64,000 bases of DNA. It comes from Minisyncoccota bacterium. GTDB taxonomy: Bacteria > Patescibacteriota > Minisyncoccia > Phycocordibacterales > JAACPR01. Numbering within the stretch: the stretch's first letter is position 1; the number at the start of each line of letters is the position of its first letter. Of the stretch, positions 7,663 to 53,112 are shown piece by piece. The notes below the pieces were generated by a model. The model had not been told where the DNA came from. It searched no databases and worked only from the letters and a program-made list of their open reading frames with translations. Both the position numbers and the translations under genes were made by a program. Where the stretch lies: contig JBAYWG010000002.1 of the NCBI GenBank assembly GCA_041674225.1, forward strand, positions 34,841 to 98,840, read 5' to 3'.

Positions 7663-8448
7663 ATGAGTTTCTCTAATAATGATTTAAATAAAAGTCGAGG
7701 ATTGGATACTAATGTACTGAAAGTTTTAGATTATCGTAAAACTATTAGAGACAATAAGGCTAAGACTTTAAAAAGAAAACAAGTCGAGCAAGAAATACTT
7801 GTTTTACGTACAAGATTGAATGTTATCGATAGAGAAATTCAAAGACTTAATGTCTCAGAGAGAAGATTTCATGGGGATGAATCACGTGCAGAATTAGAAT
7901 TAGCAGAAGAGACCAAAACTTTAGAAAATCTAACAAAAGAATTGGAAAAACATTCTTTGAATGTACAAGAACTTCAAAAAACATTGAGTTCGAAAAAGAT
8001 GTATTTTGGGAGGTCGAAACCTAAAATTAGTTTTAGTACTCAGAACGCTGAAAAAGAAATGCAGAGCTTGCGATCTGAGTTGAAAAGAGTTAATCAAGAA
8101 ATTGAACAATTAAATGCAAAGAAAAGAAGATTAATAACAGAGATGGGTTTGGTTGAAACAAAGTCTCATGAAGCAGAGGAATTGCAACAAAAAACTGATT
8201 ATCAAAATAAAGAAGAGGAAATTGCAATGCAAAAACTGACTCAAGAGATGAACTCAGAGGAGACTTTGATAAGCCGTTTTAAATCAAGATTTTTAAATCA
8301 ACAAAAAAGCGTCTTAGAAAAGAAAAGGCAATTTGAAGAAGTAAAAAATAGACTGAAAGGTTCTCGAACAGTTTCACCTGCTTTGGAAAATGAAAAACAT
8401 CGAATAGAACAAAAAATACAATCTTTAGAAGTAGATTTAAATAAGTAA
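7663..8448 (+). CDS. coiled-coil K/E/Q-rich protein; starts 6 bp after the nuclease gene stop
   Basis: Heptad-like charged repeats throughout; 261 aa. Confidence 0.5.
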   Translation: MSFSNNDLNKSRGLDTNVLKVLDYRKTIRDNKAKTLKRKQVEQEILVLRTRLNVIDREIQRLNVSERRFHGDESRAELELAEETKTLENLTKELEKHSLNVQELQKTLSSKKMYFGRSKPKISFSTQNAEKEMQSLRSELKRVNQEIEQLNAKKRRLITEMGLVETKSHEAEELQQKTDYQNKEEEIAMQKLTQEMNSEETLISRFKSRFLNQQKSVLEKKRQFEEVKNRLKGSRTVSPALENEKHRIEQKIQSLEVDLNK

Positions 8449-8449
8449 T

Positions 8450-9820
8450 ATGTCAGAAAATGTGCCATTTAAAATTGTGATTTTTGGAGGAACCGGGGAT
8501 TTGGTTCGGAAGAAAATTATTCCTGCGATATTTGATTTATATCAAAATGGATTTTTACCTGAAAATTTTGAAATTATAGGTGTATCGAGAAAGAATCTTT
8601 CAGATGAGGAGTTCGGGGATTTTGTAAAAGATTCTGTTTCTAATAAAAAGTTTGATGATAAACATTTGCAGGATTTTTTGAAAAAGAGTAGATATTTTTC
8701 TGCAGATATTTCAAATGAAGAAACTTTAAAAGAGTTAGGGAATTTTTTGAAAACAAATAAAAGTAATAATATATTTTATTTAGCGATTTCTCCAAATTTA
8801 TATGAAGTGGCTTTTAATAATCTGAGTCAGTCTGGGTTGATGCAACAATCAGAAGATAATTGGTCTAGAATTTTGGTAGAGAAGCCTTTTGGAAATGATT
8901 ACAATCACGCAGAAAAGTTGGACAAAATGCTTGGAGAGTTATTTTCTGAAAATCAGATTTTTAGAATAGATCATTATTTGGCGAAAGAGACTTTGCAGAA
9001 TATTTTAACTTTTAGATTTGCGAATTCAATTTTTGAACCGATTTGGAATTCCAGTGCGATTGAGGAAATTAATATAAAAATGTTTGAAAGTCTAGACGTA
9101 GATAATCGAGCAAGTTTTTATGATGGTGTTGGAGCTTTGAGAGATGTCGGACAAAATCATATTTTACAGATGTTGGCTTTGATAGCGATGGAAGATCCGG
9201 GTTCTTTGAAGGTGGAGGATATAAGGTTGAAGCGCGCGGCGATACTGGAAGAGATTAGTCTCGCCGAGCCGGTGCCGCCGCGCGCCCAATACACTGGATA
9301 CAGTGAAATTACCGGAATCAACCCTGAAACTAAAACAGAAACTTTTTTCTCAATACAAGCAGAAATAAATAATCCTCGTTGGAAAGGTGCAAAATTTAAT
9401 TTAACTAGCGGAAAAGCTCTTAAAGAAACTCTGACGGAAATTTCTGTTGTATTTAAAGAAAAATGGACAAGTGTTGTACCAGCTGAAGATGAAAGAAATT
9501 ATCAAAATATTGTTACTTTTAAAATCCAACCAAAACAAGAAATTTCAATTCAATTTTGGTCAAAAAAATCTGGATTTACTTATGAAGTTGATCCGCAAGA
9601 ATTGAGTTTTAATTATGAAACTTCAAATTCCAGAATTCCTGATGCTTACGAAAGAGTGCTTTTTGATTGTATAAAAGGCGATCAAACTTTATTTATATCA
9701 ACACGAGAAATAATGGCTCAGTGGAATTTTGTAGAAAAAATCCTAAAAATCTGGGAAAATGAACCAATTAAAAAATATCCAAAAGGTGTTGACCCGAGTG
9801 AAATATTAAGTACGATTTAA
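8450..9820 (+). CDS. zwf: glucose-6-phosphate 1-dehydrogenase
   Basis: N-terminal GGTGDL NADP motif and RIDHYLAKE active-site signature. Confidence 0.85.
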   Translation: MSENVPFKIVIFGGTGDLVRKKIIPAIFDLYQNGFLPENFEIIGVSRKNLSDEEFGDFVKDSVSNKKFDDKHLQDFLKKSRYFSADISNEETLKELGNFLKTNKSNNIFYLAISPNLYEVAFNNLSQSGLMQQSEDNWSRILVEKPFGNDYNHAEKLDKMLGELFSENQIFRIDHYLAKETLQNILTFRFANSIFEPIWNSSAIEEINIKMFESLDVDNRASFYDGVGALRDVGQNHILQMLALIAMEDPGSLKVEDIRLKRAAILEEISLAEPVPPRAQYTGYSEITGINPETKTETFFSIQAEINNPRWKGAKFNLTSGKALKETLTEISVVFKEKWTSVVPAEDERNYQNIVTFKIQPKQEISIQFWSKKSGFTYEVDPQELSFNYETSNSRIPDAYERVLFDCIKGDQTLFISTREIMAQWNFVEKILKIWENEPIKKYPKGVDPSEILSTI

Positions 9821-11874: not shown

Positions 11875-12510
11875 TTATGCGTATTTTGGCGACTTAATGA
11901 CCTGTATTACCGTACCGTTGATCATGAAGCTGTCATCTTCGTGAATAAATATTGGTGGAATGCTTTGAGTTGAATCAGAGGCTAGAACTACTTGGTTATT
12001 TTTTTCATCCCAAATATATCTTTTAACATTGGCCATATCGTCTATAACAGAAAGAACAATCTCTCCGTTTCTAGGAGTTTTTCTGTCTGTGTCTATGATT
12101 AGATAATCTCCATCTTCTATTGTTTTTCCATCGATCAAAGCTTTGTTCATAGAAAGCCCTTGTGCTCGGATAGCAAAAATATTTTTACATTTCTTCAGAA
12201 TATTTTTTGAAATCTTTAAATAACCTTGAATGTTTTCTGTAGCTAAAATAGTTGCCGGACCACAGTTGGCTGTACCAGCGATAGGGACTGATACAAGACC
12301 TGTGTTTTTGTTTGTGCCAGAAGTTGCGCGGGTGATTGTTTTAGAATCTTTGTCTATTTTAATTAAACCTTTTTTCTCTAACTGCATTATGTGGTGCTTT
12401 ACTTTTTGTGGAAATTTCTCACCAATCATTTCTCCAATTTGTCTAAGAGTCATACCTCTCAAGCCTTCTTGCCCAATTTTTTGTAATATTTTTTCTTGTA
12501 GGGAATGCAT
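11875..12510 (-). CDS. lexA: LexA repressor
   Basis: N-terminal wHTH; Ala-Gly cleavage site (VPIAGT); S24 peptidase Ser/Lys (GLSM...K). Confidence 0.8.
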   Translation of the reverse strand: MHSLQEKILQKIGQEGLRGMTLRQIGEMIGEKFPQKVKHHIMQLEKKGLIKIDKDSKTITRATSGTNKNTGLVSVPIAGTANCGPATILATENIQGYLKISKNILKKCKNIFAIRAQGLSMNKALIDGKTIEDGDYLIIDTDRKTPRNGEIVLSVIDDMANVKRYIWDEKNNQVVLASDSTQSIPPIFIHEDDSFMINGTVIQVIKSPKYA

Positions 12511-19096: not shown

Positions 19097-20794
19097 TTGG
19101 TCATGATGACTCAAACAGAAGCACTAAAAATATTGAAAATGGGAAAGAATGTTTTTTTGACGGGTCCTGCCGGATCAGGAAAAACATATATTCTAAATGA
19201 GTATATTAATTTTTTGCGACAGCACGGTGTGGATGTGGCGGTGACTGCTTCTACTGGTATTGCTGCAACTCACTTAAAGGGAACTACAATCCACTCTTGG
19301 GCTGGGATCGGAATTAAAGATTTTCTAACTGATTATGATTTAGATAATTTGCAACAGAAAGAATATTTGTGGAAACGTTTTGAAAAAACAAAAGTTTTGA
19401 TTATTGATGAAATTTCGATGTTGAGTTCATCTACTTTGGATTGTATAGATAGAGTCGCAAAAATTTTTAAAAGAAACGAAGAACCATTTGGAGGATTGCA
19501 GATTATTTTTTCCGGAGACTTTTTTCAGCTGCCACCGATTGAAAAAAGACCAGTTTATAATGAGCAAACTATTTTTATGGATGAAGAGGAAAATTCTAGA
19601 ATTCCTTTTGCGTTTAAATCTAAAGCTTGGAAAGATTGTGATTTGCACACTTGTTATTTATCTGAACAATTTCGGCAAGAAGACAATGAACTTTCGACAG
19701 TACTTTCGGAAATTCGTGATGGAGAACTTTCGCAAAAATCTTTGGAAATTTTAACTAAAAGAATTATCAAAGAAGATAATCCTGATATTACAAAACTATA
19801 TACTCACAATATAAATGTTGATACTTTCAATCAGAAGAAACTAGAAAGTTTAAATACTGAAGGGAAAAATTATTTAATGATTGGAAAAGGGAAACCAAAT
19901 CTTTTGGATGCTTTAAAAAGAGGGTGTTTGGTACAAGAAAAATTAACTTTGAAAAAAGGTGCTTTGGTTATGTTTGTAAAGAATAATCCTATCGCTGGTT
20001 ACGTAAATGGAACTGTTGGAGAAATTATTGGTTTTGAAGAAGGTTATCCTGTGGTTCTTACAAAAAATGGTGAAAGATTTGTGGCTGCGCCTCAAAGTTG
20101 GGCGGTGGAAGAAGGTGATAAGGTTTTGGCAGAAATATCTCAGGTGCCTCTAAAACTAGCTTGGGCTGTGACAATTCATAAAAGCCAGGGAATGACTCTA
20201 GATAAAGCGATTATAGATTTGTCGAATTCTTTTATTGAAGGACAGGGTTATGTGGCACTTTCGCGGGTAAAAACTTTGGATGGATTATTTTTGAAAGGTT
20301 TTAATAAGATGGCTGTGGCTGTGCACGATGAAATATTAAATTTAGATAAAGATTTGAGAGATCATTCAGATAAGCTTTGTATGTATGTGAATGGATTAGA
20401 GGTTGATGAATTTCAAGATGAACACCAAGAATTTTTTGAAAAAATTGGTGCAAAGAAACATAAAGTAAAAGATGAGGTGGGTGAAAAACTAAGCACTTAT
20501 GAAATTACTCACAAAATGATTAAGTCTAAAAAATCTTTAGAAGAAATGGCAGAAGAAAAAGTGGTAAAAGTTTCGACAATTTTAGCTCATATTGAAAAGC
20601 TTTTGGAAGAAAAAGTTATTACAAAAAAAGATATTGAATATTTAAAGCCAGATACAAAAGAATTTAATAAAATGTTTAAAGAGATTAATGTGGTTTTAAA
20701 AAAAGTTGGTGCGGATAAACTAACTCCTATTTTTAATGCACTAGATGGTAAATATACATTTGAGGAAATAAAGTTTACGAAGATTTTTTGTTAA
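19097..20794 (+). CDS. Pif1/RecD-like SF1 DNA helicase with C-terminal extension
   Basis: Walker A GPAGSGKTY; LIIDEISM Walker B; RecD-like motifs. Confidence 0.75.
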   Translation: MVMMTQTEALKILKMGKNVFLTGPAGSGKTYILNEYINFLRQHGVDVAVTASTGIAATHLKGTTIHSWAGIGIKDFLTDYDLDNLQQKEYLWKRFEKTKVLIIDEISMLSSSTLDCIDRVAKIFKRNEEPFGGLQIIFSGDFFQLPPIEKRPVYNEQTIFMDEEENSRIPFAFKSKAWKDCDLHTCYLSEQFRQEDNELSTVLSEIRDGELSQKSLEILTKRIIKEDNPDITKLYTHNINVDTFNQKKLESLNTEGKNYLMIGKGKPNLLDALKRGCLVQEKLTLKKGALVMFVKNNPIAGYVNGTVGEIIGFEEGYPVVLTKNGERFVAAPQSWAVEEGDKVLAEISQVPLKLAWAVTIHKSQGMTLDKAIIDLSNSFIEGQGYVALSRVKTLDGLFLKGFNKMAVAVHDEILNLDKDLRDHSDKLCMYVNGLEVDEFQDEHQEFFEKIGAKKHKVKDEVGEKLSTYEITHKMIKSKKSLEEMAEEKVVKVSTILAHIEKLLEEKVITKKDIEYLKPDTKEFNKMFKEINVVLKKVGADKLTPIFNALDGKYTFEEIKFTKIFC

Positions 20795-36011: not shown

Positions 36012-36722
36012 CTACTTTATAAACTCTTGTATCATTTTCTTCGTGTATGAGTCCACTTTGTCCTTATTTTCTAAAAGGTGTTGTTTACAATATCCAGCAT
36101 CTTTGTTCTTATAAAAAATATCGATTAACTGGGATTCTTCTTCGTTAGCTTTTTGTTTTATGTTTGTGTAAGAAAAAGGGAAGTGTTCATTTCTCTTGAG
36201 TTGAGAATAGTAAATTATTCTCATGATTCCTTTGAGATGATATTGCACAAAACCATCTCCTACATTTGTTGAATCATCCCATTGGTCTCTGATTATTTTC
36301 TTTATTTCCAGACTAATTAATTCATCTGGTATAGCAGGGTTGTTAGTAAAGTCTTCAGTTGAATATATTTTTCCGAATACTTGCTTCCAGTCTTTCATAT
36401 CTGAAAGTAATATTCTTGGATGTATCACTGTGGTAATTGAGCTATCTTTTCCGACACCTTCTTTTAGCTCGTCTTCTCTGATTACATTAAATCCAAAATA
36501 TTTGAAATCATCAAAACATTCATTAATCTTTTCTTTAATAGAAGATTGGTCAATCGAATTCTCTGACTTAACTATTGCGATAATATCTATGTCACTTGTT
36601 TCAATATCAAACTCTCCAGTAGTTATTGAGCCCCATAGATATGCTGAAAGTAATCCATCTTTCTCATATTCTTGAAAGAATTTATTTAAATGCTCCTCTA
36701 GATTGTTTTTATCGAATTTCAT
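36012..36722 (-). CDS. nucleotidyltransferase, ANT(3'')(9)/Lnu-like
   Basis: NTase motif YLWGSITTGEFDIETSDIDIIAIV (compare AadA LYGSAVDGGLKPHSDIDLLV); helical C-terminal domain; TATAAT 6 nt before ATG. Confidence 0.6.
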   Translation of the reverse strand: MKFDKNNLEEHLNKFFQEYEKDGLLSAYLWGSITTGEFDIETSDIDIIAIVKSENSIDQSSIKEKINECFDDFKYFGFNVIREDELKEGVGKDSSITTVIHPRILLSDMKDWKQVFGKIYSTEDFTNNPAIPDELISLEIKKIIRDQWDDSTNVGDGFVQYHLKGIMRIIYYSQLKRNEHFPFSYTNIKQKANEEESQLIDIFYKNKDAGYCKQHLLENKDKVDSYTKKMIQEFIK

Positions 36723-36819: not shown

Positions 36820-37329
36820 TTAGTCCTGTATCTCCATTAAAACAGAGTCCATTACTTCTCTGGGTTCCATATTTGTAGTATCAATTACCTTGAAACCTAA
36901 GTGGCTACGATTTTTAAAAATAGAAATATTATTTCTAGCTCGTTCTTCTGTTAGGTCACCGTTATTTTCTTGAGTTCTTTTTACTACTCTTTGAAGAGCA
37001 ATATCTGGATTAGCATGTAATTGAAATTTATAACAATGAATTTTTCTATCTTGAGCAAGAGTCGTGTAGAAATCAATCTCTTCCTCCGTTTTAAATGGAT
37101 TCTCAACTATTACAGATAATCCAAGGTCTAAGTATTTTGCTGCCATTACCATGGTTACTTCTCGGGCTATTTGATTATCTTGAATTCCTCTTTCAAAGTC
37201 AGATATAAACCTTTTAATTTTATCAAAACCAACGATTGCTGTTCTAGGAAGTTCTTTTGATAAGGATTTTGATAGTGTGGTCTTTCCAGCTCCAGACATT
37301 CCGTCTAATAGTATTAATTTTTGTTTCAT
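36820..37329 (-). CDS. P-loop kinase, chloramphenicol-phosphotransferase-like (AAA_33 family)
   Basis: LILLDGMSGAGKTTLSKSL...AIVGFD resembles CPT MIILNGGSSAGKSG...LAFGVD; 169 aa. Confidence 0.55.
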   Translation of the reverse strand: MKQKLILLDGMSGAGKTTLSKSLSKELPRTAIVGFDKIKRFISDFERGIQDNQIAREVTMVMAAKYLDLGLSVIVENPFKTEEEIDFYTTLAQDRKIHCYKFQLHANPDIALQRVVKRTQENNGDLTEERARNNISIFKNRSHLGFKVIDTTNMEPREVMDSVLMEIQD

Positions 37330-37404: not shown

Positions 37405-37478
37405 TGCTCCCCCGGCAGGATTCGAACCTGCGACCCATCGCTTAACAGGCGATTGCTCTACCGCTGAGCTACAAGGGA
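37405..37478 (-). tRNA. tRNA-Asn (anticodon GTT)
   Basis: Minus strand TCCCTTG-TA-GCTCAGCGGTAGAGC-A-ATCGC-CTGTTAA-GCGAT-GGGTC-GCAGGTTCGAATCCTGC-CGGGGGA-G; cloverleaf with U1-A72 and discriminator G as in E. coli tRNA-Asn. Confidence 0.85.
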
Positions 37479-40214: not shown

Positions 40215-40754
40215 TTACCAAGTTTCGCCATTTGGTTTTTCTTTATATTCTTTCAGTTTATAGACTGTTGTCTCATTAGCTTCGAGTTTTTCCCATCTTT
40301 TTGCAGGATTATTGTCGTTTTTGCGACTAAACAATTCAATTACTCTTTCCTTGATTAGACCCAGAGAAGGATGTAAATCGCTCTTGTTTATTTTCTCTGT
40401 TTGCAACTCTGTTCTTACTATTTGGAAATAGCTCGAGTTAGATTCAGAAATCTCTCGGACTGATTTAATAGGAATCGAATTAAAAGTGACACCCTTTTTC
40501 ATCAGTATTAATATTTTGTATTCTGGAACATATCCTCCGAAACCAACATTGTATTGCAGTACAATCACTGCAATTTTGCGGTCAAAGATTAACACCGGAT
40601 TAGTGATCATCTCACCTTTCTGGAGTAGGAGAGCAATTGTTTCCTCGAGTTTTTCGCAAAAATTACGAAACTTAAACATATCTTCTACACTGTTCATTTG
40701 TACTGTTGTTTGGAATTCAAATTCAAAACTACACTTCCAAAAATAAAAAGTCAA
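40215..40754 (-). CDS. hypothetical protein, tandem paralog A
   Basis: Paralogous to 40785..41291; terminator aacccccgaaggggtt overlaps its stop. Confidence 0.45.
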   Translation of the reverse strand: MTFYFWKCSFEFEFQTTVQMNSVEDMFKFRNFCEKLEETIALLLQKGEMITNPVLIFDRKIAVIVLQYNVGFGGYVPEYKILILMKKGVTFNSIPIKSVREISESNSSYFQIVRTELQTEKINKSDLHPSLGLIKERVIELFSRKNDNNPAKRWEKLEANETTVYKLKEYKEKPNGETW

Positions 40755-40784: not shown

Positions 40785-41291
40785 TTATTCTGGTGAAATA
40801 GTATAGGTGACTTGTTTTTCCGCATACAATTCCTCCCATCCATGTTGTGGAATTTCGGTGTTAATGTTAAAAATTCCTCCCATAACTTTTTTCAGCTGCT
40901 CGATTGCCTCAAGTTGTCTCTTGGCGAAAAATAATTGCTTATCTTCTGCGGGTTTAAATTCCGTTGTGGATTTAAAACTGGATGTAAGAACTAGATTTTT
41001 TACACAAGTATCCCATTCCATTTTGGTAATTACTTCAAGATTACCACAAGGATCCCAATTGAATCCCTTTGGAATTATCACAATCAATTCAACTACTGTG
41101 AATTCCGGAGGAATCCCCGCATCACCTGAGTTTTCACAGATAACTAAACCTGCTAATTTTCTGTCATAGATTTGAATTGGACTCACAATATCAAATCCTC
41201 TTTTCTGAAAATTTAATAAGTCAGTGATAGAATCAGTCAATTCATTAATAAAGTTTACAAAAGCATACGCATCTTTTATACCTGGACTCAT
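40785..41291 (-). CDS. hypothetical protein, tandem paralog B
   Basis: Shares IYDRK...PEF...KG motifs and duplicated UTR/terminator (aacccccggaggggtt). Confidence 0.45.
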   Translation of the reverse strand: MSPGIKDAYAFVNFINELTDSITDLLNFQKRGFDIVSPIQIYDRKLAGLVICENSGDAGIPPEFTVVELIVIIPKGFNWDPCGNLEVITKMEWDTCVKNLVLTSSFKSTTEFKPAEDKQLFFAKRQLEAIEQLKKVMGGIFNINTEIPQHGWEELYAEKQVTYTISPE

Positions 41292-41370: not shown

Positions 41371-43275
41371 TTAAAGTACACTCGGAGTATCAACGATGAT
41401 TTTGAATTGTGGGGGAAGAGTCATTAATTTCTTTCGGAGCGTTTCGTCAGGCCAACTTTTTGGATCAATTTTCAAAACTCCGTTCCAAATCATTTTACCT
41501 TTTTGTCTTTCTGTAAAAGCTGGATAAACCAAAAGATCATAAGGCTCTAGAAATTTCTTTGCTTCCAAAATCGCTTTCTCGGCAGCTTTCGGTGTACCTC
41601 CAACAGAAATTTTTATCAATCGCACAAAAGGCGGATAGCTATATTTTTTTCGATCACAAAATTCATTTCGATAAAAATCCGCTAAGTTTCCTTGTCGAGC
41701 ATTTTCAAAAATAGTATCGTCTGCACGCCGTGTACTGATTTGAAATCTTCTTGTAGCTTTGGCACGTAGACGAAGCAGAATTCTCAAAATTCTTTCACGA
41801 ATAGCAAAGTCTGGAATTGAAAAAAGAGAATCAATCGAAGCAATTAAAACATTTTCAACTGGTTCGTTCATATAGTGAAGTGCCATTTCTGTCCCGATTA
41901 ATACACTTCCTGGTTTTGCATAAAAAGCCTCAATAATTTCTCGTGCTTGTTTAGAAGTCTTTGCATGCTGACTATCTAAAATAAATAAATTTAAATCAGG
42001 AAATGTTTCTTTTATTTTTTCTGCGACACCTTCGACTCCGATTCCAAGCATTTGCAATCTCCAGCTATCACAATGCGCACATTTTTCTCCTGCTCTCCGC
42101 ACATCTCCGCAAGTGTGACATTGAAAAATATTTCCACCTTGTGTTGGATCTTTCCCGTACAAAACTACGGGAGTACTACAGTTTTTGCATATCACCACAG
42201 TTCCACAATCAGAACACACAATAGATGGCGCTAATCCACGGCGTGCTGTGAAAATAAAAGTATTTTCGTTTTCTGATTTTGCGCTCTTTAAAATCTCAAA
42301 AGTTTCGTTTGATAAAATTGAAAAAACATTTCCAGAATTTGAATAATCTTTTTTCATGTCGATTATTTTTGATTCTGCTGTTGAAAGAGCACGAAACTTC
42401 AATGTCCCTTCTTCTAAAAATTCATGAGTGTCATATCGAGACAATGTCTCTACGCGCAAAGCAATATCTCCCAAGAAAAATCTCGCTCCGATAATGCTCG
42501 CATAATTTTCTGCGCAATTTCTAATATCTATATACGGCATAAATTGAGTTCGATATGAATTAGAACTTTCTTGTTCAATTATGATTGTGCCAATATCGTG
42601 GCGTGGAATTGAGATAAAGCTTCCAGTTCCGATAATCAAAACCGGTCGATTGTGTTCGATGACATTGTTCCAAGATTTTATAAGTTGAGATTTTGTCATT
42701 GCGCTGTTGAAAGTGAAGGTGTGGTCTTCGATTCCTTTAGAAATTAATTTCTTGGTTCTTTCTATGTCTTCGATTGTTGGACAAATAAAAATCACTGAAC
42801 TATTTCTCGCAAAAGATTCTCGAACCAAACTTTTATAACTCGCATATCTTTCATCAAACTGATCTTGAATTACATATTTTTCACTTTGTTCATTTAAATC
42901 ACAGGGAGATATTTGAGATGGTGGATTTTTTAATTCTTTTATATTTTCAAATATTTTTTTCGGAACCAGTGCGCTGATAATTGCTCCTGTTGATGTTGCA
43001 AAATGTTCAGCCGATTTTCCACAAGCTTCTATGAATTGATTTTGTAGGATTGTATTTTTTGAAATTCCACGAATTCTTTTTAAAGTAAATTTTTGAGATT
43101 TTAATTCTTCTTTGCTTGCGAGCGCTGGTTTTTTATTCAAAACTATTCCGTTGACAATCTTTTTCCGTAGTTCAATTGTCACTAAAGATCCTATCTCAAT
43201 ATCTTTGGTCGAAAAATAAGACAGGTGCTCCACCCGAATACTTTTAGTTAATGGCATTATCTCGAGAATATACAT
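41371..43275 (-). CDS. priA: primosomal protein N' (PriA) homolog with degenerate ATPase motifs
   Basis: Aligns to E. coli PriA helicase core (PVLIIGTGSFISIPRHDIGTIIIEQESSNSYRTQ vs IVIGTRSALF...VIVIDEEHDSSYKQQ); Cys4 zinc ribbons CSDCG...CKNC...CHTCG...CAHC; Walker A replaced by DERYASYKS and DEEH by EQES. Confidence 0.7.
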   Translation of the reverse strand: MYILEIMPLTKSIRVEHLSYFSTKDIEIGSLVTIELRKKIVNGIVLNKKPALASKEELKSQKFTLKRIRGISKNTILQNQFIEACGKSAEHFATSTGAIISALVPKKIFENIKELKNPPSQISPCDLNEQSEKYVIQDQFDERYASYKSLVRESFARNSSVIFICPTIEDIERTKKLISKGIEDHTFTFNSAMTKSQLIKSWNNVIEHNRPVLIIGTGSFISIPRHDIGTIIIEQESSNSYRTQFMPYIDIRNCAENYASIIGARFFLGDIALRVETLSRYDTHEFLEEGTLKFRALSTAESKIIDMKKDYSNSGNVFSILSNETFEILKSAKSENENTFIFTARRGLAPSIVCSDCGTVVICKNCSTPVVLYGKDPTQGGNIFQCHTCGDVRRAGEKCAHCDSWRLQMLGIGVEGVAEKIKETFPDLNLFILDSQHAKTSKQAREIIEAFYAKPGSVLIGTEMALHYMNEPVENVLIASIDSLFSIPDFAIRERILRILLRLRAKATRRFQISTRRADDTIFENARQGNLADFYRNEFCDRKKYSYPPFVRLIKISVGGTPKAAEKAILEAKKFLEPYDLLVYPAFTERQKGKMIWNGVLKIDPKSWPDETLRKKLMTLPPQFKIIVDTPSVL

Positions 43276-43342: not shown

Positions 43343-44356
43343 ATGGGATTTTTCACACCAAAATTAGGTATCGATTTAGGAACTGCTAACACCCTTGTTT
43401 TTGCACCTGGAAGGGGAGTTATCTTGAATGAACCATCTGTTGTGGCTGTTTCAGAACAAGACAATAAAATCTTGGCCGTGGGTAATGAAGCTAAAGAAAT
43501 GATTGGTAGAACTCCTGAAAGTATTGTGGCGTATCGACCGATGCGTGATGGTGTAATTGCTGATTATCGTGTGACAGAAGCGATGCTTAGTTATTATTTT
43601 TCAAAAGCTCTAGGTAAATGGAATATTTGGAAACCAGAAGTAATGGTGAGTGTGCCAGCAGGTGTGACTTCGACAGAACGTCGAGCTGTAATCGAAGCTG
43701 CTATTAAAGCTGGAGCAAAAAATGCATACGTGGTGAAAGAACCGATTCTTGCTGCTATCGGTGCTGGAATTCCAATTCATGAAGCGCAAGGTCACATGGT
43801 GGTAGATATCGGAGGAGGAACAACTGACGTCGCTGTGATTTCTTTAGGAGGAATTGTTGCTTCTACTTCTGTGAAAGTTGCCGGAAATAAAATTGATCAA
43901 GCAATAATTGATTACATTAAAAAAACTTTCAATCTTGCGATCGGAGATAAAACTGCAGAGCAGATAAAAATAAAAGTTGGTTCAGCCGTTTTTCTAGAAG
44001 AAGAATTGGAAATGATTATTAAAGGAAGAGATTATCTAACAGGTCTTCCGCGTTCTACAAGTATAAAAACAAATGAAATTGTAAAAGCAATAAGTCGTGA
44101 ACTTCGAGAAATGATTAAAGCGATTAAAGATGTGTTGCAAGAAACTCCACCTGAATTGGCTGCAGATATTATTGATCACGGAATTACGATGACAGGAGGT
44201 TCTTCAATGCTCCGGAATCTTCCAGAACTTGTTTATCGTCGAACAGGTGTGAAAGCACAACTCGCAAAAGATCCTCTATATTGCGTGGCAAAGGGAACCG
44301 GAATTGCTTTGAACCATTTGGATACTTATAAGAAGACAATAATCACTAAACGATAA
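43343..44356 (+). CDS. mreB: rod shape-determining protein MreB (paralog 1, stand-alone)
   Basis: LGIDLGTANTLVF...NEPSVVAV; actin-fold motifs. Confidence 0.85.
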   Translation: MGFFTPKLGIDLGTANTLVFAPGRGVILNEPSVVAVSEQDNKILAVGNEAKEMIGRTPESIVAYRPMRDGVIADYRVTEAMLSYYFSKALGKWNIWKPEVMVSVPAGVTSTERRAVIEAAIKAGAKNAYVVKEPILAAIGAGIPIHEAQGHMVVDIGGGTTDVAVISLGGIVASTSVKVAGNKIDQAIIDYIKKTFNLAIGDKTAEQIKIKVGSAVFLEEELEMIIKGRDYLTGLPRSTSIKTNEIVKAISRELREMIKAIKDVLQETPPELAADIIDHGITMTGGSSMLRNLPELVYRRTGVKAQLAKDPLYCVAKGTGIALNHLDTYKKTIITKR

Positions 44357-49298: not shown

Positions 49299-50390
49299 AT
49301 GGTAAATGAAAAGAAAGAAAAATGGAGCTTTAAAGGCCTTTTGGATAAAATCTGGCGCTCTCTTTCTAATGATATTGGTATCGATTTAGGTACCGCAAAT
49401 ACTCTTGTTTATGTTCCTGGGAAAGGTGTGGTTTTGAATGAACCTTCTGTTGTGGCTGTTAACACAAAGACTGGTCAAGTGGTAGCGGTGGGATCTGAAG
49501 CAAAAAGAATGCTAGGACGGACACCTGGTCACGTTCAAGCGATACGTCCACTTGTTGACGGAGTTATTTCTGATTTCGAAGTGACAGAAGAAATGATTAG
49601 TTACTTGGTGAAGCGAGCTATTAAAGAACATAAAACTATTTTAGGTCCGAGAGTTGTTGTGGGTGTGCCTTCTGGTGTGACAAACGTGGAGTCTCGAGCT
49701 GTGAGAGATGCAGTAATAAATGCGGGAGCAAGAAAAGTTTATATTGTAGAAGAACCAACTGCAGCTGCGATTGGAATTCGTCTTCCGATAAATGAACCAG
49801 TTGGAAATATGGTGATTGATATTGGAGGAGGTACTTCTGATATTGCTGTAATTTCTTTGGGAGGAATTGTTCGTTCAAAAAATTTAAAGATTGCCGGAGA
49901 TAAATTAAATAATGATATTTCCTCATATATTCGAAGTGAATTTAAAATTTTAATTGGTGAAAGAACTGCTGAAGAAATAAAAATTCAACTAAGCAATATG
50001 GTGCAAGGCGAACAACCTTTGGAAGCTCCTATTAGAGGAAGAGATCTTGTTACAGGATTACCAAGAGAAGTTATTATCACCGACTCTGATATACGAGAAG
50101 CTATTGCGCATTCAATTGGCGCATTGGTAGAAGCTACAAAAGAAGTTTTGGAATCAACTCCACCAGAAATTGTTGCGGATATTATGAAGAGAGGAATTTT
50201 TCTTGTGGGAGGTGGAGCACTAATAAAAGGTCTAGATGTGTTGCTTGAATCAGAATTGCAGATTCCTGTGTATGTAGCACAAGAACCACTAACCGCAGTT
50301 GCGCGAGGTACTGGTGTGATTTTAGAAAACCTAGAAGAGTATAAAGAGGCTATAATGGTAGATGATGATGCATTACCGAAAGAAAAATAA
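49299..50390 (+). CDS. mreB: rod shape-determining protein MreB (paralog 2, in mreBCD-pbp2 operon)
   Basis: IGIDLGTANTLVYVPGKGVVLNEPSVVAV. Confidence 0.85.
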   Translation: MVNEKKEKWSFKGLLDKIWRSLSNDIGIDLGTANTLVYVPGKGVVLNEPSVVAVNTKTGQVVAVGSEAKRMLGRTPGHVQAIRPLVDGVISDFEVTEEMISYLVKRAIKEHKTILGPRVVVGVPSGVTNVESRAVRDAVINAGARKVYIVEEPTAAAIGIRLPINEPVGNMVIDIGGGTSDIAVISLGGIVRSKNLKIAGDKLNNDISSYIRSEFKILIGERTAEEIKIQLSNMVQGEQPLEAPIRGRDLVTGLPREVIITDSDIREAIAHSIGALVEATKEVLESTPPEIVADIMKRGIFLVGGGALIKGLDVLLESELQIPVYVAQEPLTAVARGTGVILENLEEYKEAIMVDDDALPKEK

Positions 50391-51408: not shown

Positions 51409-53112
51409 ATGTTTCAAAAAAGAATTAACAAATTCAAACAAAAAAGATATTCAGCCAAAGACATTGCATTGGACGAAGTTTTTTTGGATTCTCACAACTT
51501 ACCAGATTATGATACAAATCAATTAGAAGGTCGTATTGAAAAACCAATTTCAAAAAAAGTTGTTAGTGTGATTTTTTTAGTTTTTATATTTATTTTTCTT
51601 TCTTTTCTTTTTAAAATTTGGAATTTGCAGATTGTGAATGGGCAAAGTTTTGCAAAAATTAGTGAAGAAAACAGTTTGAGACATACTTTGATTTTCTCTG
51701 ATCGTGGAATTGTTTATGACAGAAATCATGTGCCTTTGATTTGGAACGAAAATACAGATGAGGATATAGATTTTAGTTTTAGAAAATATATCGATAAACC
51801 AGGCTTTGCTAACTTGTTGGGTTATGTTAAATATCCTAAAAAAGATTCATCAGGGTTTTATTACACAGAATCTTTTGAAGCTCTCGGAGGTGTGGAACAA
51901 TATTTTGATGAAATAATTTCTGGAAAAAATGGATTGAAGATTATTGAAACAAACGCAACAATGAACGTGGTGGGAGATAATACAATCCAAGATCCTGTTT
52001 CTGGACAAACACTTTCTTTAAGTATTGATGCTGAACTACAATCAAAGCTTTATTCAACAATTGCAGATATTGCAAATCAAGTAGGATTCAAGGGTGGATC
52101 TGGTGTGATCATGGATGTGAACACAGGAGAAGTTTTGGCAGTGACATCGTATCCAGAATTTGATTCAAATGTTTTAACTGAAGGGTCAGACAAAGAAAAA
52201 ATAAATTCATTTCTTAATGATTCAAATAATCGTTTTCTAAATCGCGCGACAAAAGGTTTGTATACTCCTGGATCGATTATGAAACCATTCGTTGCACTTG
52301 GAGCTTTGAATGAAGGAGTAATCTCTCCTGAAAAAGAAATTTTGAGTGTAAAAAATATGGAAGTGCCAAACCCATACGATCCCTCGAACCCATCTATTTT
52401 TACGGACTGGAAAGCTCATGGGTACGTAAATGTTTATGGTGCGTTGGCATATTCTTCAAACGTTTATTTTTATCAAGTGTCTGGTGGATACACTCCAACA
52501 GGACAAAAGGGAATTGGAATCACAAAACTAGAGGAATATTTTAGAGCGTTCGGTTTTGGTGATGATATTAATGATGAGTTTTTGGGAGGAAAGTCTGGAA
52601 CAATTCCAAATCCAAAATGGAAGATAGAAAATTTTGATGGAGATGATTGGCGACTCGGTGATACTTATTTCACAGCAATTGGACAATACGGAGTGCAGGT
52701 GACGCCGATGCAAATTGCGCGAGCTGTATCTGCGATTGCAAACGGAGGAAAATTAATTGAACCAACTGTGAAGCTTGACGATTCTGTAACTATTTTAAAA
52801 AACATAGATAACATTTCACCTCAGAATTTTGACATTATTCAAAAAGGAATGAGAGATGCTGTGGTGTATGGAACAGCAAGAGGTCTTAATTTGAGTAATG
52901 TGGAGATAGCTGCAAAGACTGGTACGGCTGAGCTCGGTGTTTCTAAGGAGAGTGTGAACTCTTCGGTTGTCGGATTCTTTCCTTATCAGGAGCCAAAATA
53001 CGCTTTTGTGGTGATGCTGGAGCAAGGAAGCAGAAGTAATCTAATCGGAGGAGTTGCTGTCATGAGACAGGTTTTAGACTGGATAAACATATATAGACCC
53101 GAATATTTCTAA
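51409..53112 (+). CDS. mrdA: penicillin-binding protein 2 (elongasome transpeptidase)
   Basis: SIMKP (SxxK), SSN, KTGTA motifs. Confidence 0.8.
   Translation: MFQKRINKFKQKRYSAKDIALDEVFLDSHNLPDYDTNQLEGRIEKPISKKVVSVIFLVFIFIFLSFLFKIWNLQIVNGQSFAKISEENSLRHTLIFSDRGIVYDRNHVPLIWNENTDEDIDFSFRKYIDKPGFANLLGYVKYPKKDSSGFYYTESFEALGGVEQYFDEIISGKNGLKIIETNATMNVVGDNTIQDPVSGQTLSLSIDAELQSKLYSTIADIANQVGFKGGSGVIMDVNTGEVLAVTSYPEFDSNVLTEGSDKEKINSFLNDSNNRFLNRATKGLYTPGSIMKPFVALGALNEGVISPEKEILSVKNMEVPNPYDPSNPSIFTDWKAHGYVNVYGALAYSSNVYFYQVSGGYTPTGQKGIGITKLEEYFRAFGFGDDINDEFLGGKSGTIPNPKWKIENFDGDDWRLGDTYFTAIGQYGVQVTPMQIARAVSAIANGGKLIEPTVKLDDSVTILKNIDNISPQNFDIIQKGMRDAVVYGTARGLNLSNVEIAAKTGTAELGVSKESVNSSVVGFFPYQEPKYAFVVMLEQGSRSNLIGGVAVMRQVLDWINIYRPEYF

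What the first reader, a model, noticed from the sequence alone, without database searches (positions are those of the whole stretch)
41371..43275. PriA homolog with both Walker A and Walker B motifs degenerate
The protein aligns well to the PriA helicase core and retains the Cys4 zinc-binding insertions. The Walker A site (GVTGSGKTEVY in E. coli) reads DQFDERYASYKSL. The DEEH box reads IEQESS. No GK[ST] P-loop occurs anywhere in the 634 aa. This suggests an ATPase-dead PriA retained as a structural replication-restart or primosome scaffold.
Basis: seen in the sequence. Interest (0 to 1): 0.5.

Follow-up and report, generated by a model that had tools for sequence, protein, structure and literature searches.

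The report
ATPase-dead PriA of Parcubacteria
This gene encodes the replication-restart protein PriA of a tiny uncultured (candidate phyla radiation) bacterium, and in hundreds of related species it has kept its DNA-fork-binding and zinc-finger parts but lost the ATP motor. A motor-less PriA was previously shown only for Deinococcus.

Summary
ORF 41371-43275 (-) is an intact 634-aa PriA homolog: hhalign probability against E. coli PriA is 99.9%, the AlphaFold model has pLDDT 87, and Foldseek TM against PriA crystal structures is 0.75. Walker A GVTGSGKT reads QDQFDERY, DEEH reads EQES, and motif III GSATP reads GDIAL. Motif VI has lost five residues (AGRAG). The winged-helix domain is absent. 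All eight CRR cysteines, the 3'-end-binding domain, the motif Ia/Ic/IV/V regions and the C-terminal domain are kept.

This is not an error or gene decay. All 377 homologs collected, down to 34% identity, show the same state, and the substitutions are fixed (Q137, R143, E236 and D270 are almost invariant). Family-specific matches occur in 330 GTDB species genomes. dN/dS is about 0.08, and the gene sits in a priA-def-fmt arrangement.

The best reading is a lineage-wide PriA pseudohelicase that senses forks and serves as a loading platform. The kind is already known from the D. radiodurans PriA pseudohelicase and the E. coli priA300 (K230R) allele. This is therefore a new member of a known kind, more radically stripped than those two, and apparently undescribed for Parcubacteria. 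Loss of ATPase activity is inferred, not measured. A second priA elsewhere in the genome could not be excluded.

The parts
41371..43275 (-). Complete priA-like CDS: 634 aa plus a stop codon at 41371-41373. The ATG at 43275 is supported by the conserved N-terminus MYI..V.P in homologs.
   Evidence: TIGR00595 210.9 bits; hhalign probability 99.9% against E. coli PriA; Foldseek TM 0.74-0.75 against PriA structures
42961..43275 (-). 3'-end-binding domain (3'BD), residues 1-105. Y20 aligns with E. coli Y18 and K59 with K61, so both are retained; D17 is replaced by S19. The domain contains the non-conserved GKS tripeptide at residues 86-88.
   Evidence: Pfam PF17764 at 21.4 bits, just under its cutoff, but precomputed in most homologs; hhalign; pocket residues as listed in PMC5778457
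42886..42960 (-). Short low-confidence linker, residues 106-130, standing where the E. coli winged-helix domain (residues 109-181) would be. The WH domain is absent.
   Evidence: hhalign leaves about E. coli 107-215 unmatched; pLDDT is 58 for residues 121-130; the hit with the highest pair of TM-scores (0.75/0.74) is E. coli PriA with the WH domain deleted, 6dcr
42286..42885 (-). RecA-like lobe 1, residues 131-330, carrying the disabled motifs I, II and III and the retained motif Ia (P166, D170) and Ic (T217) regions.
   Evidence: dN/dS for this lobe is 0.07-0.095
42844..42867 (-). Former Walker A, residues 137-144: QDQFDERY in place of GVTGSGKT. Q137 and R143 (aligned with K230) are invariant in the family. 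The P-loop glycines are replaced by acidic residues.
   Evidence: in the model the helix starts at residue 140
42565..42576 (-). Former Walker B (DEEH), residues 234-237: EQES. The family consensus is E-[RKQ]-E-[SN].
42457..42471 (-). Former motif III, residues 269-273: GDIAL in place of GSATP. D270 is invariant among close homologs.
41716..42285 (-). RecA-like lobe 2, residues 331-520, with retained motif IV (ARRGLAP, residues 344-350) and motif V (VLIGTEMAL, residues 458-466).
42070..42216 (-). Cysteine-rich region (CRR), residues 354-402, with four CxxC pairs expected to bind two zinc ions. All 8 Cys are invariant in 120/120 homologs.
   Evidence: the CxxC pattern is as described in PMC5778457
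41764..41769 (-). Site of the 5-residue deletion in motif VI, between L503 and R504. E. coli QVAGRAGR loses AGRAG, including R584.
   Evidence: the gap is present in all 120 + 146 aligned family members
41374..41715 (-). C-terminal domain, residues 521-634, with the conserved GN..F..R...YPPF signature shared with canonical PriA.
   Evidence: hhalign extends to E. coli residue 696; PF18074 is precomputed in some homologs; pLDDT is about 90

Best explanation
This is the PriA ortholog of a Parcubacteria-type (Patescibacteria/CPR) bacterium, and it has become a pseudohelicase. It has the PriA body plan without the winged-helix domain: 3'-end-binding domain, two RecA-like lobes, a two-zinc cysteine-rich region and a C-terminal domain. 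Every element that binds or hydrolyses ATP has been rewritten into a different, conserved sequence. The P-loop is replaced by the start of a helix carrying acidic residues and an invariant Arg at the Lys230 position. DEEH has become E-x-E-S. The motif III Ser has become an invariant Asp. Motif VI is shortened by five residues.

Inferred mechanism: the 3'BD captures the 3' end of the nascent leading strand. The two motor-less RecA lobes hold lagging-strand-template DNA statically through the retained motif Ia/Ic/IV/V regions. The CRR and CTD then present a docking surface for the next factor that reloads the replicative helicase, either DnaB directly or through an unidentified adaptor. Such a protein could only act on forks that already have single-stranded lagging-strand template, because it cannot unwind a duplex lagging arm.

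Shown here: homology, fold, motif states, lineage-wide conservation, purifying selection and synteny. Inferred: lack of ATPase activity, DNA binding, the restart role and the identity of the partner.
For: PriA identity rests on several results. TIGR00595 scores 210.9 bits over residues 148-577 and NF004069 scores 168 bits over residues 14-571. phmmer gives 8e-25 against K. pneumoniae PriA. hhalign gives 99.9% over E. coli 17-696. The AF2 model has pLDDT 86.9 and pTM 0.86, and Foldseek gives TM 0.74-0.75 against 8fak, 6dcr and 4nl4.

The motor is disabled. Motifs I, II, III and VI are all changed. In the model the P-loop is two residues long.

This is not decay. Among the 120 closest homologs, Q137, R143, E236, D270 and all 8 Cys are invariant. 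R143 is present in 145 of 146 representative clusters at 34-59% identity. None of 377 sequences has a P-loop at the site. dN/dS is 0.07-0.10 in every domain.

The family is broad. 330 GTDB species genomes carry the family-specific motif V, and 2277 clusters at 50% identity score E<=1e-30.

Orthology is supported by synteny. def-fmt lies directly downstream in 54 of 80 loci and mreB lies divergently upstream in 69 of 80.

Precedent exists. D. radiodurans PriA carries the same K-to-R change, has no ATPase or helicase activity, and still binds forks and DnaB (PMC4504706). [quoted passage not shown] The residues that stabilise the E. coli CRR-UP state (R427, R428, H455, E492) correspond here to conserved R345, R346, Y/H373 and E415.
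Against: No biochemistry exists for this protein or any family member. A second, canonical priA elsewhere in the genome was excluded only for this 64-kb window. The strict invariance of Q137, R143, E236 and D270 shows that the pocket is under selection for something. That something could be more than structural stability, for example a ligand or a partner contact. The downstream partner is unknown, and no priB, dnaT, dnaB or loader gene was found among the window ORFs scanned against Pfam. TIGR00595 scores below its curated cutoff (210.9 against 230.35).
Confidence: 0.72

Rival explanations
1. The former ATP pocket has been repurposed rather than merely inactivated. The acidic residues at the start of helix 140-156, invariant R143, E234/E236, the basic residue common at position 235 in the family, and D270 would form an internal salt-bridge network. 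That network would mimic a bound nucleotide, or bind another ligand or partner. It would lock the RecA lobes and CRR in a loading-competent state.
For: The replacements are fixed, not random. Q137 and R143 are invariant, E236 is 120/120 and D270 is 120/120 among close homologs. The P-loop glycine positions are D/E in most members. The catalytic-Glu position is R or K in 102 of 120. Lobe 1 has a dN/dS as low as any other domain. In E. coli the CRR position is allosterically coupled to the ATPase site (PMC13594977).
Against: No coordinates were available, so no distances were measured. The conserved Arg and Glu residues may simply keep the fold stable. The window protein itself has Q, not R or K, at position 235.
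Confidence: 0.2
2. The protein is still an NTPase or helicase that uses a non-canonical nucleotide-binding mode or a second site.
For: The RecA-like fold of both lobes is retained. A second, weaker nucleotide site has been proposed for E. coli PriA (PMC5778457).
Against: There is no glycine-rich loop at all, and the site is acidic. The Lys is replaced by Arg, a change that alone abolishes E. coli PriA ATPase activity. The Walker B Asp and His are changed, and the motif VI loop with R584 is deleted. D. radiodurans PriA, with milder changes, has no ATPase activity.
Confidence: 0.04
3. The gene is a neofunctionalised paralog that no longer acts in replication restart, and the real PriA function is supplied by another gene or has been lost.
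For: TIGR00595 scores below its cutoff and NCBI calls this protein 'hypothetical'. The rest of the genome could not be examined. A Pif1-like helicase with an intact P-loop lies in the same window.
Against: The gene occupies a priA-def-fmt position that is conserved among its relatives. The PriA-specific 3'BD, CRR and CTD are all retained and conserved. No second priA-like sequence is present in the window.
Confidence: 0.04
4. The finding is an artefact: a pseudogene, a frameshift or an assembly error.
For: None found.
Against: The ORF is uninterrupted and colinear with hundreds of homologs of 620-660 aa from independent assemblies. dN/dS is about 0.08.
Confidence: 0.005

Closest known systems
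Canonical PriA DNA helicase (E. coli / K. pneumoniae primosomal protein N'; TIGR00595; PDB 4NL4, 6DGD, 8FAK)
   Same: The domain order 3'BD, RecA lobe 1, RecA lobe 2 with an inserted 4x CxxC zinc-binding CRR, then CTD is the same. Motif IV RRG.AP, motif V IGT[QE]M, Y234/Y147 and the C-terminal PPF/PPW signature are shared. The fold matches at TM 0.75.
   Different: Sequence identity is only about 16-21%. There is no winged-helix domain. The Walker A, DEEH and SAT motifs are replaced, and motif VI is shortened by 5 residues. The curated TIGR00595 cutoff is not reached.
Deinococcus radiodurans PriA pseudohelicase, Deinococcus-Thermus type (Lopper et al. 2015, PMC4504706)
   Same: Both are natural PriA orthologs with poor Walker A and B motifs, including Arg at the catalytic Lys position. 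Both are conserved across a whole lineage, and the proposed role as a non-motor restart factor is the same.
   Different: The phylum is different (Patescibacteria/Parcubacteria). Here the glycine-rich loop is gone altogether, motifs III and VI are also altered, and the WH domain is missing. The D. radiodurans protein has been tested biochemically and this one has not. Whether the two losses are independent was not tested, because no Deinococcus sequence was obtainable with these tools.
E. coli priA300 (PriA K230R), an engineered ATPase-dead allele
   Same: Arg sits at the P-loop Lys position. That allele shows that PriA can assemble the primosome and support restart without ATPase activity (PMC5778457; PMC13594977).
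   Different: It is a single engineered substitution in an otherwise intact helicase. It works with PriB and DnaT, which were not found among the window ORFs scanned here and are not known for this lineage.
E. coli PriA with the winged-helix domain deleted (PDB 6DCR)
   Same: It is the PDB hit with the highest pair of TM-scores (0.75/0.74). It has the same WH-less architecture.
   Different: It is an engineered deletion that keeps an active ATPase and helicase core.

Membership tests
PriA (primosomal protein N') as a homologous family | N-terminal 3'-end-binding domain (PF17764) | tested here: met
   PF17764 scores 21.4 bits over residues 25-105, just under GA 22.7. It is precomputed in most homologs. 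hhalign aligns it to E. coli from residue 17 on, with Y18 and K61 conserved. Foldseek matches the full length.
PriA (primosomal protein N') as a homologous family | Two RecA-like lobes with the PriA-type zinc-binding CRR (CxxC x4) inserted in lobe 2 | tested here: met
   All 8 Cys are invariant in 120/120 homologs. TM is 0.74-0.75 against PriA structures.
PriA (primosomal protein N') as a homologous family | PriA C-terminal domain | tested here: met
   hhalign extends to E. coli residue 696. PF18074 is precomputed in several homologs. The model is confident here, with pLDDT about 90.
PriA (primosomal protein N') as a homologous family | Winged-helix DNA-binding domain between the 3'BD and the helicase core | tested here: not met
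   About E. coli 107-215 has no counterpart. Only a 25-residue low-confidence linker is present. The hit with the highest pair of TM-scores is the WH-deletion structure 6dcr.
PriA (primosomal protein N') as a homologous family | Score above the curated TIGR00595 equivalog cutoff | tested here: not met
   The score is 210.9 bits against a cutoff of 230.35. This is consistent with NCBI naming this protein 'hypothetical protein'.
PriA (primosomal protein N') as a homologous family | Gene order with priA upstream of def and fmt. That this order is typical of priA in other bacteria is from my own knowledge; it is supportive, not defining. | tested here: met
   def and fmt lie directly downstream in 54 of 80 related loci. 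In this window they follow after a two-ORF insertion.
PriA helicase (active DExH SF2 motor) | Walker A / motif I GxxxxGK[ST] | tested here: not met
   The site reads QDQFDERY. None of 377 family sequences has a P-loop at this position.
PriA helicase (active DExH SF2 motor) | Walker B / motif II DEEH | tested here: not met
   The site reads EQES, and the family consensus is E-[RKQ]-E-[SN]. Only 2 of 377 sequences retain DEEH.
PriA helicase (active DExH SF2 motor) | Motif III (SAT) and motif VI (QxxGRxGR, arginine finger) | tested here: not met
   Motif III reads GDIAL. A 5-residue deletion removes AGRAG in all aligned members.
PriA helicase (active DExH SF2 motor) | DNA-dependent ATPase and 3'-5' unwinding activity | not testable with these tools
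   This needs purified protein.
PriA pseudohelicase (Deinococcus-Thermus type, PMC4504706) | PriA ortholog whose Walker A Lys is replaced (K to R), with poor Walker A and B matches, conserved across the lineage | tested here: met
   R143 aligns with K230 and is present in 120/120 close homologs and 145/146 representative clusters.
PriA pseudohelicase (Deinococcus-Thermus type, PMC4504706) | No ATP hydrolysis or unwinding, with fork/ssDNA binding and DnaB binding retained | not testable with these tools
   These are biochemical criteria; only sequence-level inference is possible here.
PriA pseudohelicase (Deinococcus-Thermus type, PMC4504706) | Common descent with the Deinococcus-Thermus PriA clade | not tested
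All named relatives are Parcubacteria/Patescibacteria.

The most novel reading that the evidence does not exclude
A whole major branch of the candidate phyla radiation (Parcubacteria/Paceibacteria) restarts replication with a motor-less, WH-less PriA. This branch has at least 330 species genomes in GTDB and likely more than a thousand 50%-identity clusters. In this reading the former ATP pocket was not just inactivated. It was rebuilt into a conserved internal charge network (acidic helix cap, invariant R143, E234/E236, D270) that acts as a built-in 'nucleotide mimic' and fixes the protein in a loading-competent conformation. That would allow helicase reloading without ATP, PriB or DnaT.
Probability: 0.2. 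Interest if true: 0.6.

Novelty: new member of a known kind. Interest (0 to 1): 0.38.

Why it matters
[quoted passage not shown] This finding adds a second and much larger lineage in which PriA has no ATP motor. The changes are also more radical: there is no P-loop at all, motif VI is truncated and the winged-helix domain is missing. This strengthens the view that PriA's essential job is fork recognition and platform assembly rather than unwinding. It also provides a natural minimal PriA of about 630 aa for structural and biochemical work. It raises the question of how genome-reduced CPR bacteria deal with forks whose lagging arm is duplex. On the practical side, curated models score these proteins just under threshold, so many are deposited as 'hypothetical protein'.

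Tried and rejected
(1) A frameshift or sequencing artefact was rejected. The ORF is intact and colinear with hundreds of homologs.

(2) A mis-aligned P-loop was rejected. Three alignment methods agree. A regex scan finds only a GKS at residues 86-88 in the 3'BD, without Walker context.

(3) No second priA is present in the window. tblastn with E. coli PriA and with the window protein finds only this locus. The rest of the genome could not be reached.

(4) I tried to find the taxonomic boundary of the trait, that is, where intact-motif PriAs begin. The full-library search listed only family members among its best 150. A second homolog search seeded with P0199, an atypical member that still has DEEE and GATTP, again returned only family members without DEAD/ResIII domains. 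The boundary remains undetermined.

(5) Literature searches for PriA with Patescibacteria, Parcubacteria or candidate phyla radiation gave nothing relevant.

(6) The afdb50 fold library was unavailable, and PMC6166810 (the PriA WH paper) is not held.

(7) Model coordinates are not exposed, so the proposed R143-E234/E236-D270 contacts could not be measured.

(8) PHROGs and Pfam gave nothing for the two small ORFs downstream of priA.
Full report
**Observation**

The ORF at 41371..43275 (minus strand) is an uninterrupted 634-aa reading frame starting with ATG.

Three independent alignments place these strings on the E. coli/K. pneumoniae PriA motifs:
- phmmer against PDB aligns IIIEQESSNSY with VIVIDEEHDSSY of K. 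pneumoniae PriA (E=8e-25).
- MAFFT with E. coli PriA (taken from NC_000913) and 120 homologs aligns QDQFDERY with GVTGSGKT, EQES with DEEH and GDIAL with GSATP.
- hhalign of a 68-sequence family profile against E. coli PriA gives 99.9% probability over E. coli residues 17-696, again with R143 opposite K230.

The eight cysteines of the zinc-binding region are all present.

One detail of the finding is literally wrong. There is a GKS tripeptide at residues 86-88. It lies in the N-terminal domain, has no Walker context and is not conserved, so the substance of the claim ('no P-loop') stands.

- Motif VI (QVAGRAGR) carries a 5-residue deletion that removes AGRAG.
- Motif III is changed.
- The whole winged-helix domain is absent. 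It is E. coli residues 109-181 according to PMC5778457. hhalign leaves about E. coli 107-215 unmatched, and only a 25-residue low-confidence linker is present.
- The AlphaFold2 model is confident (pLDDT 86.9, pTM 0.86). Its best Foldseek hits are the PriA structures at TM 0.74-0.75, and the highest pair of TM-scores (0.75/0.74) is for E. coli PriA with the WH domain deleted, 6dcr.
- In the model, strand 133-137 is followed after only two residues by helix 140-156. The glycine-rich phosphate-binding loop therefore no longer exists as a loop.

**Not an artefact, and not decay**

The first homolog search returned 940 hits. The best 120 are 41-100% identical proteins of about 630 aa from Paceibacterota/Parcubacteria MAGs, and none carries a DEAD or ResIII Pfam domain. 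The exhaustive search of 1.84 billion representatives found 2277 clusters at E<=1e-30, and the best 150 go down to 34% identity. A scan of GTDB species genomes with the family-specific motif V pattern confirmed 330 relatives. The named ones are Nomura-, Zambryski-, Taylor-, Yonath-bacteria, Parcubacteria and Minisyncoccia. A second search seeded with an atypical member added Lloydbacteria and others.

Across the 377 collected sequences, none has a P-loop at the aligned position and 358 carry [ED]-R-x3-[YWF]-[KR] there.

The replacements are fixed rather than random. Among the 120 closest homologs:
- Q137 is 120/120.
- R143 is 120/120, and 145/146 among representative clusters.
- E236 is 120/120.
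- D270 is 120/120.
- The 5-residue motif VI gap is present in every aligned member.

The motif Ia/Ic/IV/V regions, which I take to be DNA-contacting, are kept: P166 and D170 (Ia), T217 (Ic), RRG.AP (IV) and IGTEMA (V). Nei-Gojobori dN/dS against two relatives that are 82% identical is 0.08-0.09 overall and 0.07-0.095 for the former ATPase lobe. dS is close to saturation.

**Context**

The window is ordinary core genome of a small, low-GC (about 34%) bacterium. priA is followed on the same strand by two small unknown ORFs, then def and fmt. mreB is divergent 67 bp upstream, and holB and frr lie beyond it. In 54 of 80 related loci def and fmt follow priA directly, and in 69 of 80 mreB is upstream. 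That conserved placement supports orthology with priA, on the premise that priA-def-fmt is a common priA arrangement in other bacteria; that premise is from my own knowledge. tblastn finds no second priA-like sequence in the window.

**Mechanism**

Shown here: a full-length PriA fold lacking the WH domain, loss of all ATP-site motifs, conservation of the 3'BD pocket residues, the CRR, the motif Ia/Ic/IV/V regions and the CTD, and strong purifying selection. In the 3'BD pocket, Y20 aligns with Y18 and K59 with K61, while D17 is S19.

Inferred: the protein binds an abandoned fork through the 3'BD and the motor-less RecA lobes. It then offers its CRR/CTD surface for reloading of the replicative helicase, without unwinding.

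The inference rests on published work:
- E. coli PriA K230R has no ATPase, helicase or translocase activity, yet behaves nearly like wild type in vivo and assembles primosomes in vitro (PMC5778457).
- D. radiodurans PriA has the same K-to-R change. It is a natural pseudohelicase that still binds ssDNA, fork DNA and DnaB (PMC4504706).
- The residues that stabilise the CRR-UP (PriB-docking) state in E. coli are R427, R428, H455 and E492. They correspond to conserved R345, R346, Y/H373 and E415 here. A CRR switch may therefore be retained.

A consequence of this reading is that forks with a duplex lagging arm would need another helicase or could not be restarted. A Pif1-like helicase with an intact P-loop is encoded in the window, but no link to PriA was shown.

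**Rivals**

- The strict invariance of the replacement residues leaves room for a repurposed pocket, either an internal salt-bridge network that mimics a nucleotide or a new ligand or partner site. I give this about 0.2. It could not be tested because model coordinates are not exposed.
- A cryptic NTPase is unlikely, given the acidic loop-less site and the deletion in motif VI.
- A neofunctionalised paralog is unlikely, given the synteny and the retained PriA-specific domains. It can only be excluded by scanning complete genomes.
- An artefact or pseudogene is refuted.

**Comparison with what is known, and novelty**

By descent this is a PriA. By the defining motifs it is not a PriA helicase. 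TIGR00595 scores 210.9 bits against a cutoff of 230.35, and NCBI deposited this very protein as 'hypothetical protein'.

The kind, a PriA pseudohelicase, is established for Deinococcus-Thermus. Reviews cite that as the sole exception to helicase conservation. I found no paper linking PriA motif loss to Patescibacteria, Parcubacteria or the CPR in the held library.

I therefore rate this a new member of a known kind. It has notable extra features: the P-loop is eliminated rather than point-mutated, motifs III and VI are altered, there is no WH domain, and the clade is very large. Whether the loss is independent of the Deinococcus-Thermus one, and where within Patescibacteria it begins, remain open.

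**Verdict**

The finding is of moderate interest (0.38). It is a solid, lineage-wide natural example that broadens a known exception, not a new type of system.

Noticed in passing
window 40215-40754 (-) and 40785-41291 (-): Two small paralogous ORFs of 179 and 168 aa (31% identity over 89 aa, E=1e-11) are inserted between priA and def. Neither has a Pfam or PHROGs match. In most relatives def starts 5-60 bp after priA. L002 has a distantly similar ORF (8539-9006) plus a second ORF (7991-8461) at the same spot. This looks like a fast-evolving lineage-specific insertion in the priA-def-fmt gene cluster.
   Followed up: partly
window 19097-20794 (+): A Pif1-like SF1B helicase of 565 aa (PF05970, 3e-39) has an intact Walker A (GPAGSGKT), a Pif1 2B domain and a C-terminal HTH_40 domain. 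It is a possible alternative source of fork-remodelling helicase activity in a genome whose PriA has no motor. No link to PriA was shown.
   Followed up: no
window 43343-44356 (+) and 49299-50390 (+): There are two full-length MreB paralogs, each scoring about 450 bits on PF06723. The second is followed by mreC and a PBP2-type transpeptidase (51409-53112). The first is divergently transcribed from priA, 67 bp away, and this arrangement is conserved in 69 of 80 related loci.
   Followed up: partly
window 11875-12510 (-): A LexA-like repressor is present (Peptidase_S24 plus a weak LexA DNA-binding domain). The organism may therefore keep an SOS-type response despite its reduced genome.
   Followed up: no
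window 41371-43275; proteins P0001, P0101, P0272, P0310, P0316, P0322, P0366: Annotation is inconsistent. This protein and many family members are deposited at NCBI as 'hypothetical protein', while others are called 'primosomal protein N''. TIGR00595 scores just under its cutoff. P0001 was also called from Met7 (628 aa), whereas the conserved N-terminus supports the 634-aa start.
   Followed up: partly
proteins P0217, P0328, P0199 (family members): Rare family members still have DEEH (P0217, P0328) or DEEE plus a GATTP motif III (P0199), while lacking the P-loop and carrying the motif VI deletion. This suggests the P-loop and motif VI were lost first and motifs II and III drifted afterwards.
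   Followed up: partly
loci L002, L003 and many others: Many TPA_asm MAGs labelled 'uncultured Candidatus Saccharibacteria bacterium' encode PriA proteins up to 82% identical to this Paceibacterota protein, with the same synteny. The taxonomic label of those records is probably coarse or wrong.
   Followed up: no
window 36820-37329 (-) and 36012-36722 (-), next to tRNA-Asn 37406-37478: A small AAA_33/zeta-toxin-like P-loop kinase and a nucleotidyltransferase-domain protein lie beside the only tRNA gene in the window. They may be a toxin-antitoxin-like or mobile insertion.
   Followed up: no
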